Positions 3,125 to 9,168 of a stretch of DNA of 20,000 nucleotides are shown here, piece by piece; positions within the stretch are counted from its first letter, which is position 1, and every line of letters begins with the position of its first letter. The notes under the pieces are model-generated. The model saw only the letters and a program-made list of their open reading frames with translations. It made no database searches and was not told where the DNA came from. Location: NCBI GenBank assembly GCA_000165425.1, contig CT868096.1:619129-639128 (forward strand), read 5' to 3'. The DNA is from Paramecium tetraurelia (lineage: Eukaryota). The translations under genes were made by a program, and so were the position numbers.

Positions 3125-5155
3125 ATGAAAGCTAAGGCAATAATTGAATTTATCGTTTTTGTGGATTCGCTTAAAACTATTGGGATCTTTTTATTGGATG
3201 AGGGAATGTATCAAATAAGGATTAACTTATATATATAGAGTGTAAGTGATTTTGAGTATTGCAGTCCCAAAATTTGAAGATTCCTCTCACTCCGAAAGAA
3301 ACTTTGCTATTCAAGAGAAATGAATAACAATATTTGCCATAACATATAATTGATAACTATTATATGAGTGATGCTTTCTTATTGAGATAATGGACGGAGG
3401 AAGTAATAAATTATTTAAATTGGAAAGGAAAAATTTGAGATAAAAAATGGATGTAGGTTCAGCGGTGCAATTCCACATAATTTAAAAGAGTAGCCCTGTT
3501 TCATGGAGATTGAATTAATGTATTACGATTTAGCATAAAAAATTGTCTCATTTTAAAGTATATCGATGGCGAAGTTTAAAATTGAAAACTCATCAAATGG
3601 GATATATGAATATGTTCCTGTAATATTAGGGGAAGATCACTTTAGTTTATTAAATCTGATGGTATAATTGAATAACTAATAAATTAGGTTCTTTGTTCAT
3701 TGACTAGTTTTGATATTTAACTATAGTAGGTATAAAGTGAGGATAAGATGGCACTAGATCAACATTAACATATAAACATGAGACAACTATATAACAAAGT
3801 GTTGGAACCTCTTAAAACATCTTATCGAAATATGCAGACATTCTATTATAATATGGAGTTAGAAATGGAAAGAGCAAGCAGCAGTGGAGGTATGCAATAT
3901 CAACTTCGACAAACGAAAAGTTTTTAGGTTTTGCCATTATCTAGCGCGGATTCATTATTAAAAAATGAATAAAATACATAATTGATTAGCAAAGTTATGG
4001 CCAATGAATTCAAAGTGCTATAAAGTACAATAAACTAATTGTGGCATAAAATAATTATTGGATTAAAATTAGGCCATTAAAAATTACTCAGGTAACTGAA
4101 GAAGGAGTCATTAACAAATTTCTAAAGTCGATACTCTGCATTTACACAGAAAGAAGTAATTCCTGTTGTAGATCATCAATATACTATGATTCCTTAATAA
4201 CAGAAATAAAGTCAAGAGTAGGCAGATTTATAGAGTAAAAGATTGGAGTATCAGAAATTGTTACTACAAGGTCCATCGAAAATAGTTGATTTAAAAATAA
4301 TAGATGAAATCAAGGATAAGTTAATGATAGTTGAAAAACATTATGTTACAAGATAAACATTTTAATTATCAAGATCAAAATTGCATCTAATTGTTTTGGT
4401 TCATGGTTATTAAGGCCATTCTTATGATATGAGATTATTGGAGAACTATATGTGTTTAAGGTTTCCTTAGCATATGTTATTGGTTTCATTGTGCAATCAG
4501 TAAAACACAGAAGGAGATATATTACAAATGGGTAAATATCTTAGTGACGAAATTAAAAACTATATTGCAACATGGTCTTATACCGATAAATTAGTTATCT
4601 CATTTATCGGACATTCGTTAGGAGGATTAATTATAAGAGCAGCATTACCATATTTGGATTTTGAGTTTCATACTTTCTTAACATTAGGAACACCACATTT
4701 GGGTAATGTTACTAATTAAAGACCTTTAATAAAATTTGGAATGTGGTTTTTTTAGAAACTAAAGAAATCTCTAAGTTTATCTCAATTAAATTGTTATGAT
4801 GATACATTGTTAAAACTATCCTTATTTCCTGGAATGAATAAATTTAAACATATTATTTTATTTGGATCTCAATAAGATCATTATGTGAATAGTGAAAGCA
4901 GTTTATTAATGAAAGTCTCAGGAATTGAGAATGAATTAAAGCATAATGAAATGGCAACTAATATCTTAAGACAATTGCATCAAAATGAAGTCTTAAGAAT
5001 TAGCATTGATTATAAGTTCTATGATGGGTATAAGTCTTAATATTATTCATAGAGATTTTGATACTTTTTTAGGGAGGAAAGCACATATAGCCATCTTGGA
5101 ATCACATTTTCTAAATTAATACATAATATATAACTTAGGAGACTATTTCAAATGA
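3125..5155 (+). CDS. FAM135-like / DUF676 putative serine esterase (alpha/beta hydrolase), about 643 aa
   Basis: Motifs HLIVLVHGYQGHSYDMRLL, ISFIGHSLGGLIIRAAL (GxSxG nucleophile elbow), FLTLGTPHLG, GSQQDHYV and GRKAHIAILES. Four introns (3242-3264, 3403-3427, 3662-3687, 5028-5052) restore one frame from ATG 3125 to TGA 5153-5155. Confidence 0.9.
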
Positions 5156-5242
5156 AAAGTTATGATATATATTAATTCATAAATGATATTTTTCTTCGTT
5201 TTAAAAGATGTTTTTATTATATTAATTATAATTCAATAATAC

Positions 5243-6395
5243 ATGCTGGCTTTACTATTAGTGCAGATAGGAAGTTCAATGCCAATATATGGAAACTTCT
5301 CTTAATACTATTATTATGTAGAATTGAATAATAAAAAATGGATTTTAGATTAGGCTTTTGATGGTGCTATAGAAGATACTGAATGTCTAGGTAGCAACAA
5401 TTCAAAATCCTAATTTTTCTTTGCTTAAAGATTTATATAGATTCGTTCTCTTCCTTTAAGTAAAAATATGATAAGAGAAGCTGATAGTGCAAATTACATT
5501 TGTTAAGATACTTGTAAAATGTAGATAGGTGATTTTACAATCAATAATTACTGTGGATAATTCTACAGTTAACATTAGGAAATTAATAATTATTTAGGTC
5601 TTGGTTAAATAGTACAAAATCCTAAAAGCGATTAGCAACTTAAATTATGTTTGGCTTAAAATGGAGGTTATATGAAAATTGGTAATTTTGAGAATGATGA
5701 GCATCACATTTAAATTGATTATGTCTAACTAAATTGTTTTATGGAATCTAATTGTTAAAAGAATAGATTGTAATTCATCGGTTTAGAAATAAAATAATTT
5801 TTCTTATATCCCTTGAGTAAAATTGAAGTAGTAGCGGATTTCTCAAATACATATGTTGAGCTTCCTTCTTATATGTATATGCCTTTAATATAGCACATAT
5901 AATGTTAAGGAGTTTTCTGTCCTAGAAGAAATGATTCAGAAGGACTGATATGCTATGATAATGACTATGATGATGTAGATAAATTTTATCAGAAGTTTCC
6001 CAATATTCGCTTTTATTTTTATGTAAACTCAAAATTTGTTTGGTTTCCATAAGATTATTTAGTTACACATGATAATAAGACTTATTGTTTTCCTGTAAGA
6101 GGAGGAAGTAACTTTATATTTATTTGAAATAGCATCCAAAATTATTCTGGGTTAACCATTTATGAGAAATAAAGAGTTTATTTTTGGAAAGGATAAATTA
6201 ATTATCAATTACCAAAATTGCTCCGAAGAAACTAGCCTTGATGCTCCAACAATATCATTGTATATAGAAAAGGAAATCTCAAAATTTTACACAGGGATAT
6301 CATTGCTCATATCCACATTCATCATTTATTACATCCTATTTAAGTTTAAATAGAGGAAAACAAATTAATAATTGATTAATCCACACATTCAATGA
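5243..6395 (+). CDS. Pepsin-family (A1) aspartic protease homologue with degenerate catalytic motifs, signal peptide and C-terminal TM helix, about 375 aa
   Basis: MLALLLVQIGSSMPIYGNFSQYYYYVEL..WILDQAF; YLGLG; LCLAQNGGYMKIG; VVADFSNTYVELP; FPNIRFYF..WFPQDYL..YCFPV; IILGQPFMRNKEFIF; hydrophobic GISLLISTFIIYYILF. One frame-restoring intron at 6108-6132. An in-frame upstream ATG at 5183 is an alternative start. Confidence 0.85.
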
Positions 6396-7625
6396 TTATT
6401 TTATTATTTTCTATTGTAAGTTCTTAATTAATATTTGATCTCAAAAGAGATGTTTATAAGTCAGAGTATTTCATAGAATTAGATATCGGTACTCCATCAA
6501 AGAAAACTAACTTTGTTGCTGACACTGGCGCTCCGATAACTTCATTTATATGCAATTCTGTAAGAATCCTAAATTAAACATAGAATTCAAATACTTTGCA
6601 TATGTGCAATTAGGATCAGAACTCAGATTGCTTGTCTTAATTTGTCACTTATGATGGAGAATTGTCTAGTGCAATTTCAGCATATGATCTAATGAAGATT
6701 CAAAAAAACAATATAATATTAAACTTTGAATGCATTTCACAAGATTCAACCTAAATATTAGGATTGGGAAGTTAAAGCAATTTTATTAACGCCTTATATA
6801 AAGAATTTTAATTTTAAAGCGAACATTAGATATTTTCAATATTATTAACAAATGAAAATGGCAAATTAACTGTCGGTCAAGATTATCCAAATTATAATGA
6901 TAGTAGTATTCCTTTTTCTTATTAGTCCTACTATTTTTAAGTAGACTTAGTAACTGTCTCAGTAAATTTATTAATAATTTAAGGATGATAATAATAATAT
7001 AGTTTTTTAACCAAATCAACTTGAGGACTATGAGATTATTGTAGATACAGGAAGCACATTAATTAATATGGATTCTGAAACTTTCTAATCTTTTATAAAA
7101 TCATTTTCTAAATGCGAAAAAGATCCTAGAGGATGTCCCTAAAAAAAGGAGATATATGGATATTAATGTTATTTGTATAATAGGCCTCATTATGGTGACA
7201 TCTCTAATTTTTATGAAACTTTTCCTGAGTTTAGTTTCAACTTTAAAAATGGCTATAAGTATAAATTGAGTGCAAAAGATTATTTGATTAATTTATAGGA
7301 TAATTATTATTGTGTGCCTTTTGAAGGTTTTGCAAGAAATTATGAAACTAAATTCAAAAAAATCATTCTTTTAGGACAACCTTTTATGAGAAATAAAGAA
7401 TTTTATTTTGATTTGAAAGAATATAAAATTTTCATTAAAGATCCAGAAACATCATAAAATTTTTTGCATTATACGAATTTAACAGATTTGGGTTTGAATA
7501 CTTATATTTTTGTGGAACTTGCCTTAATGATTGGGATTTGCTTCTTTTACAGAAAATATTCAGCCCAAATAAGAGGAATGTTTAGATCCAGCAGACCAAA
7601 CTAAGGGGTTAATCCTTATGCTTGA
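6392..7625 (+). CDS. Pepsin-family (A1) aspartic protease with two intact DTG motifs, signal peptide and C-terminal TM helix, about 395 aa
   Basis: MIILLFSIVSS signal; YFIELDIGTPSKKTNFVADTGAP (DTG at 6521-6529); ILGLG; IIVDTGSTLINM (DTG at 7044-7052); ILLGQPFMRNKEFYFD; TM YIFVELALMIGICFFY. Introns at 6560-6583 (24 nt, frame-neutral) and 6962-6983 (22 nt). TGA at 7623-7625. Confidence 0.92.
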
Positions 7626-8222
7626 TTTAAATTAATATATTACATTTATGTTCACATAATAAAATAAATAGCTAACCTTCACAACTTCATTCAAAACTCC
7701 TCTAATATTGATTCGATCAAATCTTGGGAAAATTTCAAAAAATGAAAACAAATCATTCAATTAAGTACAAATATGATGTGTTATCTTGATTTTTAATATT
7801 AATAAAATTTAATTAAAACAATATAGTAAGTTGTCCTTTAACTTATGTGTAAGCAGATACATATTTTGGATAAAATGATCTACTATCTAAGGATAGAATT
7901 AAATTGACATGAAAATCAAGGAATTTAATTTAAGGAAGAGTTAGATAACTAGTTTCATAATATATTAAAGAATTTCTATTCGCTTAGAAAATATGATTTA
8001 TGGAAATGATTATTCGAGATAGTAATCTTACTAAATAAAAAATTCATCTCAGTTGCATTTAAGGAAAAAAAATATTATACATCTATTCTACATCTTAATA
8101 AGTTAGAAACTTTCGGACATCAATTCAAGAAGACTTGTTCAATTAAATTGAAGAATTTATTTGTGTATTTCATCTGTAATAAATTTAATAATTAATTATT
8201 TATTGAATTATTTTATTAATAA

Positions 8223-9168
8223 TCATTTTAAAATGCTTCTTTCGCTTGTACATGCCAACTGATGTTCTAAGAAATAACATGGGAATATTATGTCACCATC
8301 ATAATACAATTAGGATAAAAAGTATAGGTTTCCATTCTTACCTAGATGTTTTCTGAATTCTACCAATTAAATATTTAACAATGTAAAGGAATAAATAAAA
8401 AACAATATTAAAATCCTTTAAAATTAAATTAAAATCTACCAAATAATTGCTGTCATCATATCCTAGATATTCAAATATAAACCCACGAATAATATTTCAA
8501 ATAAAAGCACAAATGATATTCTAGTAAATAAATTAATTTGAAAGTAAGTACCTCCATGGTTAATCAGAAACAAGGAAGCAGTTTTTAATTCCATCCTCCT
8601 TATCAAAATGGGAACAAATTAAAATAATTATTAAATTGATGAAGATTACGGCAATAAAAACACCCAAATTCAATTCTGGATATAAAATAACTGCATATAC
8701 AAACCAGAATAATCTAACAATAGTATTTACTCCCTATTTATTAAATTATTAGATTACAAACAAAAATACGTTTTTAGGTGACTTTAAGGATTATGAATTA
8801 CTAAATTATGCTAATGCCAATGATAAGATGTAAAGCATCAAAAGCACAACCCAAATAATAAATGGTATTTGCAAGATCTATTCGCTTAAATTAAAATGAG
8901 TTAATAATCCAATAACTAGTAATGCAACACCAAAATGAATCGACAATACTAATATATATTTGAATTGATTTTCCTAAATCTAGTTTTTGCTATTCCTCAA
9001 TACTAGGTCCTCTGTTACTAATCGGTTCTGTGATTGATATGACTTACTATGTAGTATTGTTTATAGCTGATTTTCTAACAAATATATCCAATATTCCCTC
9101 CATTAATGGCTTTTTGTCCTAATTTATTAGTTATTCTCACTTACTTCCACTTAATCTCGTTATTACAT
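8223..9168 (-). CDS. Multi-pass membrane protein, possibly a divergent Bax inhibitor-1/TMBIM family member, about 288 aa
   Basis: ATG 9168 to TGA 8225-8223 with introns at 8734-8757, 8521-8551 and 8416-8439. Six or seven hydrophobic segments follow a polar N-terminus. PKNVFLFGVNT and YFLSQLYYDGDIIF loosely resemble TMBIM motifs, so the family call is tentative. Confidence 0.7.

What the first reader, a model, noticed from the sequence alone, without database searches (positions are those of the whole stretch)
6340..6440. ATGA stop/start overlap joins two tandem aspartic protease genes with no intergenic DNA
Seen: the upstream gene reads ...NPHIQ-TGA (6393-6395). The downstream gene starts at ATG 6392-6394 (MIILLFSIVSS), and no other Met lies between it and the first DTG. 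The 4-nt ATGA overlap is the configuration known from translational coupling in prokaryotic operons and termination-reinitiation in some RNA viruses, and is unexpected for nuclear genes. Inference: either a bicistronic mRNA with reinitiation or -1 recoding, or two overlapping transcripts in which the promoter of gene 2 lies in the last codons of gene 1 and the poly(A) site of gene 1 lies in the signal-peptide coding region of gene 2.
Basis: partly seen in the sequence, partly recalled or inferred. Interest (0 to 1): 0.8.

Follow-up and report, generated by a model that had tools for sequence, protein, structure and literature searches.

The report
Paramecium genes overlapping at stop/start
Two neighbouring protease-family genes of Paramecium share four bases, the stop of one being the start of the next; the overlap is real and kept in related species, and most likely each gene still has its own messenger RNA, with its start and end signals hidden inside the neighbour's coding sequence.

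Summary
The ATGA overlap (6392-6395) is real. One DNA-type contig and two spliced RNA contigs show no indel at the junction. Public protein models force the same ATGA in P. pentaurelia and break at this junction in 5 of 5 Paramecium species seen. Gene 2 is an intact plasmepsin-V-like protease; gene 1 lacks both D[TS]G motifs and is probably inactive.

The overlap is not unique. My gene models for 420 kb around the locus give 11 credible tandem spacers of 6-28 nt among 112 pairs, plus a second, ohnologue-conserved ATGA about 20 kb away. With Paramecium's ~19-nt 5' and ~44-nt 3' UTRs, such pairs need overlapping transcripts. Gene 2's first 50 coding bases have 3'-flank composition (14% GC; 0 of 237 gene starts this low).

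Best reading (0.65): two overlapping monocistronic transcripts, the extreme of Paramecium gene packing. Bicistronic termination-reinitiation stays open (0.22): no UGGGA motif, leaky scanning unlikely, no transcript-end data. Frameshift fusion, spliced fusion and sequencing error are unlikely. The scan's earlier notes held no Paramecium case; one tight animal tandem pair was noted on other DNA.

The parts
5243..6395 (+). Gene 1: plasmepsin-V-like A1 aspartic-protease fold, signal peptide and C-terminal transmembrane helix; probable pseudo-protease (375 aa)
5348..5356 (+). Degenerate first catalytic motif of gene 1 (DQA; DQA or DQN in 3 orthologues)
5837..5845 (+). Degenerate second catalytic motif of gene 1 (DFS; DFT, DFT, DLS in orthologues)
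6108..6132 (+). Gene 1 intron, 25 nt
   Evidence: spliced in RNA contig X18, retained in X17
6260..6294 (+). 35-nt GT-AG stretch used as an intron by the public fused 758-aa model; not spliced in the RNA contigs
6285..6341 (+). Gene 1 transmembrane helix, in the frame that ends at TGA 6393-6395
   Evidence: hydrophobic run followed by basic residues; kept in 2 orthologues; helix 329-368 in the model of the octaurelia orthologue
6356..6391 (+). Last 12 codons of gene 1; inferred transcription-initiation region of gene 2; wobble positions largely conserved
   Evidence: 13 same, 2 different; typical initiation -26 to -11 from bioRxiv 10.64898/2026.09.19.752804; function inferred
6373..6375 (+). 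Off-frame TGA; not gene 1's stop, but the end point of the mis-spliced P. sonneborni model
6392..6395 (+). ATGA: start of gene 2 overlapping stop of gene 1
6396..6445 (+). Gene 2 signal-peptide codons, 14% GC; inferred 3'-end region of gene 1
   Evidence: function inferred
6392..7625 (+). Gene 2: plasmepsin-V-like A1 aspartic protease with DTG at 6521-6529 and 7044-7052, signal peptide and C-terminal transmembrane helix (395 aa)
6560..6583 (+). Gene 2 intron 1, 24 nt
6962..6983 (+). Gene 2 intron 2, 22 nt

Best explanation
Two separately transcribed genes packed until their coding sequences touch. Gene 2 is transcribed from a start site inside the last ~12 codons of gene 1 (about 6356-6383), has a normal ~10-30-nt leader, and starts at ATG 6392 by ordinary cap-dependent initiation. 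Gene 1's mRNA stops translation at TGA 6393-6395 and is polyadenylated about 45 nt later, inside gene 2's AT-rich signal-peptide codons. Each coding end doubles as the neighbour's regulatory DNA, which freezes the junction. ATGA is simply the likeliest geometry in an A-rich genome whose only stop is TGA. Shown: the overlap, its conservation, splicing, composition and the background of short spacers. Inferred: the start site, the poly(A) site and monocistronic translation.
For: (1) Published UTRs: 5' median 19 nt, 3' median 44 nt; genes sometimes overlap; Cap-seq split 649 fused models (PMC5485702); initiation mostly -26 to -11. Any spacer under ~60 nt therefore implies overlapping transcripts. 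(2) Spacers that short are common nearby: 23 of 112 predicted tandem pairs at or under 50 nt and 14 of 112 at or under 30 nt, 11 of which I judge credible, including 11 nt before a 2Fe-2S complex-I-type gene and 6 nt before a Ras-family GTPase. (3) A second ATGA is kept in the ohnologue and joins a 71-aa membrane protein to an acylphosphatase, genes with no evident shared function. (4) Gene 2 nt 5-54 are 14% GC: 0 of 237 predicted gene starts are this low against 84 of 237 3' flanks; lowest other signal-peptide start 16%, median 31% of 18, gene 1's own 36%; codon-resampling P=0.039. (5) In 13 ohnologue-conserved pairs with spacers up to 30 nt, synonymous divergence in the last 12 codons is 0.164 against 0.297 mid-gene, p=0.0013, matching the wobble conservation here. 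(6) No UGGGA upstream of the junction and 32 ATGs in gene 1. (7) NMD removes premature-stop transcripts in Paramecium (PMC5663052); that a 1.2-kb two-intron trailer would be a target is my inference.
Against: No start site or poly(A) site was observed. Both RNA contigs run unbroken through both genes, whereas X18 breaks between the upstream esterase gene and gene 1; this fits a bicistron too (a contig across two genes shows no single transcript). Raw reads are too few (132) and depth tracks GC (rho 0.48, p=0.03, 20 bins). Gene 1's tail is not more AT-rich than its amino acids predict (P=0.47). Short-spacer versus long-spacer tail conservation is not significant directly (p=0.17). Both genes are missing together from the ohnologous contig, and a second enzyme/degenerate-paralogue pair sits 11 nt apart; both hint at coupling. 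The background comes from my own unvalidated gene finder (75 of 491 aligned introns lack GT/AG in the ohnologue).
Confidence: 0.65

Rival explanations
1. One bicistronic mRNA: ribosomes finish the 375-codon gene 1, terminate at TGA and reinitiate on the overlapping ATG, making pseudo-protease and active protease in a fixed ratio. The conserved last 12 codons, or the peptide they encode, would be the coupling signal.
For: ATGA is kept across species. Unbroken spliced contigs cover both genes in 2 of 2 RNA-type assemblies. Gene 1's last 13 residues are 13 of 13 identical in P. primaurelia, against 64% identity over exon 1. Joint absence from the ohnologue. Peptide-dependent reinitiation without a viral element is reported for a human mRNA (PMC3923131, abstract).
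Against: No UGGGA core in gene 1 (motif recalled) and no significant structure (z=-1.34, 17 of 200 shuffles as stable). No Asp-rich tail. Gene 1's tail resembles gene 2's own tail (NQQLINPH / NQGVNPY), so a protein sorting motif may explain the invariance. Similar tight junctions join unrelated genes. Gene 2's start looks like a 3' flank. NMD risk.
Confidence: 0.22
2. Stop-codon frameshifting (-1 or +2 at CAA-TGA) makes one three-pass protein with a dead and an active protease domain, gene 2's signal peptide serving as the second membrane span.
For: The topology would be consistent (inference). +1 and +2 shifts at stops occur in Euplotes (PMC10235951, PMC12275403, search listing).
Against: [quoted passage not shown] Gene 2 keeps its own Met and signal peptide in 3 species. 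No fused two-domain relative stood out among 110 hits of the 758-aa query (motifs checked in 15 of them). Other tight junctions have spacers of 6-28 nt that a shift would not explain.
Confidence: 0.05
3. One gene: the 35-nt stretch 6260-6294 is an intron, giving the 758-aa fusion of the public model (CAK71199.1).
For: It is the public model, and my finder reproduces it when overlaps are forbidden. The -1 frame is open from 6242.
Against: Not spliced in X17 or X18. It deletes the transmembrane helix that orthologues keep. The -1-frame peptide is 11 of 20 identical to P. pentaurelia upstream of -36, while the gene 1 frame is 19 of 24 identical to P. primaurelia over a similar stretch. The fused model beats the overlap model by only ~0.4 log units. 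About 98% of introns are 20-30 nt.
Confidence: 0.03
4. Assembly error: a 1-nt indel hides a 16-nt spacer after TGA 6373-6375.
For: An off-frame TGA exists at 6373-6375 and is conserved in P. sonneborni.
Against: No indel in 3 contig sets or in 132 raw reads. Independent P. octaurelia and P. primaurelia proteins end NPHIQ.
Confidence: 0.01

Closest known systems
Overlapping transcription units of Paramecium tetraurelia (Arnaiz et al. 2017, PMC5485702; Jimenez-Marin et al., bioRxiv 10.64898/2026.09.19.752804)
   Same: Compact tandem genes whose UTRs overlap. Table S2 of PMC5485702 lists 3 of 29 rows with a second start site 2 nt from the gene's 3' end, one marked as overlapping UTR. The preprint suggests promoter elements may lie in the upstream neighbour's 3' UTR.
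   Different: Here the coding sequences themselves overlap, so both inferred signals would lie in coding DNA. I saw no such case in the passages read.
TURBS termination-reinitiation of caliciviruses and influenza B (review PMC10275272)
   Same: Out-of-frame stop and start sharing nucleotides (AUGA) after a long ORF.
   Different: No UGGGA core and no significant structure upstream; a single mRNA is not shown; nuclear intron-containing genes.
Drosophila dicistronic and multiphasic gene pairs (FlyBase, PMC4528330)
   Same: Nuclear same-strand genes with stop-start distances down to -34 nt; 18 pairs with coding overlap; about 18% of polycistronic loci hold similar genes; many also have monocistronic forms.
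   Different: Those rest on cDNA evidence, which is lacking here; Paramecium's very short UTRs make two separate transcripts easy.
Green-algal bicistronic genes translated by leaky scanning (PMC11892635)
   Same: Closely spaced, conserved nuclear ORF pairs.
   Different: They have a short, AUG-poor ORF1; gene 1 is 1128 nt with 32 ATGs.
Plasmepsin V (PDB 8TYF, 4ZL4), A1 aspartic proteases
   Same: Best sequence match for the fused query and for the gene 1 profile, and best fold match for gene 1; membrane-anchored.
   Different: About 15% identity; gene 1 has lost both D[TS]G motifs while keeping the aspartates; orthology not shown.

Membership tests
TURBS-type termination-reinitiation | Stop and restart codons within about 20 nt, out of frame | tested here: met
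   ATGA 6392-6395; criterion from PMC10275272
TURBS-type termination-reinitiation | Both ORFs on one mRNA | tested here: inconclusive
   Unbroken contigs in X17 and X18 cannot tell one mRNA from a ~65-nt overlap; 132 raw reads
TURBS-type termination-reinitiation | Upstream motif complementary to 18S rRNA (UGGGA core, recalled) | tested here: not met
   No TGGGA between 5150 and 6395; nearest at 6765. The Paramecium 18S sequence itself was not checked
TURBS-type termination-reinitiation | [quoted passage not shown] | tested here: inconclusive
   6290-6440 folds at z=-1.34, 17 of 200 shuffles as stable
TURBS-type termination-reinitiation | ORF2 translation depends on termination of ORF1 nearby | not testable with these tools
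   needs reporter assays
Leaky-scanning bicistron (green algae) | Short ORF1 depleted of AUGs | tested here: not met
   32 ATGs in 1128 nt of gene 1, 27 in 1188 nt of gene 2
Peptide-dependent cellular reinitiation (Gould et al. 2014) | Aspartate-rich C-terminus of ORF1 | tested here: not met
   The last 49 residues of gene 1 hold no Asp; feature from abstract
Euplotes-type stop-codon frameshifting | Stop interrupts one continuous protein, with no independent start after it | tested here: not met
   Gene 2 has its own conserved Met, signal peptide and complete domain
Overlapping monocistronic tandem units (Paramecium) | Capped start site just upstream of the downstream ATG | not testable with these tools
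   No Cap-seq or STRIPE-seq coordinates reachable; wobble conservation at -36..-1 is only suggestive
Overlapping monocistronic tandem units (Paramecium) | Poly(A) site about 45 nt after the upstream stop | tested here: inconclusive
   Composition fits; no poly(A)-bearing read was laid
Active A1 aspartic protease | Two D[TS]G motifs, gene 2 | tested here: met
   DTGA and DTGS; both also in P. pentaurelia and P. sonneborni
Active A1 aspartic protease | Two D[TS]G motifs, gene 1 | tested here: not met
   DQA/DQN and DFS/DFT/DLS in 4 of 4 species with both sites
Active A1 aspartic protease | Pepsin-like fold, gene 1 | tested here: met
   Model of the octaurelia orthologue pLDDT 73.9; Foldseek top hit plasmepsin V, E=2e-14

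The most novel reading that the evidence does not exclude
Paramecium makes stable bicistronic nuclear mRNAs and uses efficient termination-reinitiation without a TURBS after a 375-codon ORF, here to co-produce a pseudo-protease and its active partner. With about 2 credible ATGA junctions in ~114 sampled tandem pairs and ~20,000 tandem pairs in the genome (PMC8997360), a few hundred loci could be involved, hidden because annotation fuses or truncates them.
Probability: 0.2. Interest if true: 0.85.

Novelty: new variant of a known kind. Interest (0 to 1): 0.5.

Why it matters
Under the likelier reading, a Paramecium core promoter and a 3'-end signal are each confined to a few dozen coding bases. 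That makes these poorly defined elements directly testable by synonymous mutation. It also exposes an annotation blind spot: 5 of 5 public models seen for this locus are fused, truncated or mis-spliced, and other such junctions exist. Under the less likely reading it would be a rare cellular case of reinitiation after a long ORF. The conserved, probably inactive plasmepsin-V-like protein is a separate lead.

Tried and rejected
Paralogue search in G000 with gene 2 exon 1 and with the DNA of both genes found only the locus itself. The ohnologous contig C136 lacks both genes. Three other PF14541 loci each showed a single protease in 8 kb.

A junction motif scan of metagenome contigs gave 0 matches. 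No DNA of other Paramecium species was available, so conservation rests on protein models.

Complex prediction of the two ectodomains gave no verdict; it is no evidence either way.

The tree (quick method, 8 Paramecium rows plus the first 40 of 61 suitable hits) puts gene 1 and gene 2 on very long branches and does not join them. A tandem-duplication origin is not shown, although they align at 24%.

Raw-read depth (X24) peaks before gene 1's stop (6.85, 10.8) and falls at the junction (1.77). I rejected this as evidence of a poly(A) site because depth tracks GC and that bin has the lowest GC of the 20.

The wobble test (pooled Fisher p=0.008; 0.14 and 0.05 singly) uses a boundary chosen after seeing the data and is confounded by amino-acid invariance; a second control gave 18 same, 10 different. 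I treat it as suggestive only.

A TGATTAA promoter motif was considered: 8 hits within 60 nt of 237 starts, not clustered.

Of 14 spacers up to 30 nt I dropped 3 as likely mis-predictions (C113 449131, 476606, 561950). Of 11 junctions at or under 0 nt called with an overlap bonus I accept 2 (this one and 605957). The other 9 have an alternative model, an indel against the ohnologue, no ohnologue, or look like split genes; most were judged only from the printed junction and protein ends.

Table S2 of PMC5485702 (29 genes with two start sites) could not be tied to this locus.

Full report
Setting. The window is G000:C113:619129-639128. It is a ciliate macronuclear sequence read with NCBI code 6. 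The protein it encodes is filed as Paramecium tetraurelia GSPATT00000912001 / CAK71199.1, a 758-aa fused model.

Observation. ATG 6392-6394 and TGA 6393-6395 overlap as described. Gene 1 (5243-6395, one intron) gives 375 aa and gene 2 (6392-7625, two introns) gives 395 aa. Four runs were laid on 4600-8300. Contig X10 matches without a difference but may be the source of this DNA. Contigs of X17 (5252-7665) and X18 (5250-7702) are spliced, so they come from RNA. They cross the junction with no other letters, and their only gaps are the introns. Neither removes 6260-6294, the 35-nt stretch the public fused model treats as an intron. The only GT-AG candidates of 18-36 nt near the junction are 6260-6294 and two that begin after the stop, so none removes the TGA.

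Conservation. Searches with gene 1 exon 1 and gene 2's last exon each returned 3 proteins, from P. octaurelia, P. primaurelia and P. sonneborni. They have neighbouring accession numbers and equal contig lengths within each species, and a P. pentaurelia fusion is a cluster member. All 5 public models are broken at the junction. Tetraurelia and pentaurelia are fused. Octaurelia and primaurelia end gene 1 at NPHIQ but start gene 2 after its first DTG. Sonneborni keeps MIILLFS but drops the conserved GQPFMRN motif of gene 1 and runs in the +1 frame to the TGA equivalent to 6373-6375; the false 16-nt intron behind this is my inference from the window sequence. The pentaurelia fusion reads ENKLIIDQSTYS-MIILLFS through the junction. 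Met-Ile must be ATG-A, so TGA stands in gene 1's frame: ATGA is forced in that species. In the other three it is inferred, since I had no DNA. Off-frame models also expose gene 1's wobble bases: 13 same and 2 different at -36 to -1, against 20 and 22 upstream (caveats under Tried and rejected). The ohnologous contig C136 lacks both genes, with about 113 bases in place of 2.4 kb.

The proteins. Both carry PF14541, and gene 2 also PF00026. The closest solved structure by sequence and fold is plasmepsin V. Gene 2 has two DTG motifs. Gene 1 keeps both aspartates but reads DQA/DQN and DFS/DFT/DLS in 4 of 4 species, so it is probably inactive; this follows from the established role of the D[TS]G motifs and was not assayed. 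Both have a signal peptide, a C-terminal membrane helix and a similar short tail. A tree did not show them as sisters.

Background. I aligned 420 kb of C113 with 420 kb of C136 (238.5 kb aligned) and ran my own gene finder with ohnologue support. It gives a median tandem spacer of 152 nt, close to the published intergenic median of 161. It is imperfect: 75 of 491 aligned introns lack GT/AG in the ohnologue, and at this locus it prefers the fused model by ~0.4 log units unless overlaps get a small bonus. Of 112 tandem pairs, 23 have spacers up to 50 nt and 14 up to 30 nt; I keep 11 of these 14. They include 11 nt before a 2Fe-2S thioredoxin-like gene, 11 nt between a purple acid phosphatase and a degenerate paralogue, and 6 nt before a Ras-family GTPase. 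A second ATGA at C113:605954-605957 joins a 71-aa protein without a Pfam match to a signal-peptide acylphosphatase. It is kept in the ohnologue inside a 74-nt identical run, with substitution patterns that support both frames and no other conserved in-frame start. Runs of 60 nt or more number 70 in the aligned region, so the run alone is not exceptional. A precedes the stop in 113 of 237 genes and follows the ATG in 105 of 237, so ATGA needs no special selection once the ends meet.

Mechanism. Published Paramecium UTRs are tiny: 5' median 19 nt, 3' median 44 nt (PMC5485702), with initiation mostly at -26 to -11 (bioRxiv 10.64898/2026.09.19.752804). Pairs with 6-28-nt spacers must then have overlapping transcripts, or else be polycistronic; the same paper found that most transcription units match one gene and that Cap-seq split 649 fused models. 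Composition supports the overlap here. Gene 2 nt 5-54 are 14% GC, like real 3' flanks (median 16%, 84 of 237 this low) and unlike gene starts (median 30%, 0 of 237). Signal-peptide codons explain part of this (18 signal-like starts: median 31%, lowest 16%, itself after an 11-nt spacer), but codon choice is still AT-biased, P=0.039. Upstream genes of tight pairs show reduced synonymous change in their last 12 codons (p=0.0013 against mid-gene; not significant against long-spacer pairs). Against known bicistronic routes: no UGGGA, no significant fold, 32 ATGs in gene 1 and no Asp-rich tail. For a bicistron: unbroken contigs, joint absence from the ohnologue, an invariant tail and the dead/active pairing. 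Raw reads (132, all on the sense strand over both genes) cannot decide. I put two monocistronic transcripts at 0.65 and reinitiation at 0.22.

Comparison and novelty. Overlapping UTRs in Paramecium are known, and coding overlaps with or without dicistronic mRNA are catalogued in Drosophila. Five searches listed no paper on stop/start overlaps or bicistronic mRNA in Paramecium; I saw only the listed top rows, and the library lacks most subscription journals. I rate it a new variant of a known kind: a conserved coding overlap at the extreme of Paramecium gene packing, with an annotation blind spot and a probable pseudo-protease attached.

Papers seen. bioRxiv 10.64898/2026.09.19.752804: parts 1-4 of 6; its supplements were closed and may hold start-site coordinates for this locus. 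PMC5485702: passages, section 6, and part 1 of 3 of supplement 1; supplements 2 and 3 could not be read and may hold per-gene expression. Passages only: PMC8997361, PMC12716044, PMC10275272, PMC5663052, PMC11892635, PMC8997360, PMC5009743, PMC4528330. Abstract and outline: PMC3923131. Search listing only: PMC10235951, PMC12275403. Recalled, from no call: the UGGGA core, the purple-acid-phosphatase motifs, and the names complex I 24-kDa subunit, Mic10 and Rab for neighbouring genes.

Noticed in passing
L075:5742-6310 (G000:C113:605742-606310): Second ATGA overlap: a 71-aa two-helix membrane protein (no Pfam match; Mic10-like from recall) followed by a signal-peptide acylphosphatase, kept in the ohnologue.
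   Followed up: partly
L023:1562-4264 (G000:C113:701562-704264): Purple acid phosphatase followed 11 nt later by a paralogue with degenerate metal-binding motifs (motifs recalled): a second tight enzyme/pseudo-enzyme pair.
   Followed up: partly
L069:2872-4657, minus strand (G000:C113:542872-544657): Only 11 nt separate a coiled-coil gene from a 2Fe-2S thioredoxin-like gene (complex I 24-kDa subunit from recall); 67 nt are identical in the ohnologue across the junction.
   Followed up: partly
L032:1567-1574 (G000:C113:791567): 6-nt spacer between a 1679-aa gene and a Ras-family GTPase, stop and start both kept in the ohnologue.
   Followed up: no
L071:1680-1960 (G000:C113:561680-561960): A 4-base insertion relative to the ohnologue breaks a reading frame: pseudogene or assembly error.
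   Followed up: no
window 6560-6583: Gene 2's first intron is 24 nt, in frame and without TGA, a class reported as counter-selected; it is spliced in both RNA contigs.
   Followed up: no
window 6357-6395 and 7588-7625: Both proteins end in a similar tail (NQQLINPHIQ, NQGVNPYA), possibly a shared sorting motif; gene 2's is coded at 46% GC, gene 1's at 20%.
   Followed up: partly
window 3125-5155 and 7626-7790: The upstream gene is a DUF676 serine esterase ending 87 nt before gene 1. Non-coding sequence just after gene 2 (7611-7774) still aligns to the ohnologue although both protease genes are absent there.
   Followed up: no
P0007 (P. sonneborni gene 1): Carries a Q/N/D-rich repeat insertion of about 50 residues in the N-lobe, a region modelled with low confidence.
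   Followed up: no
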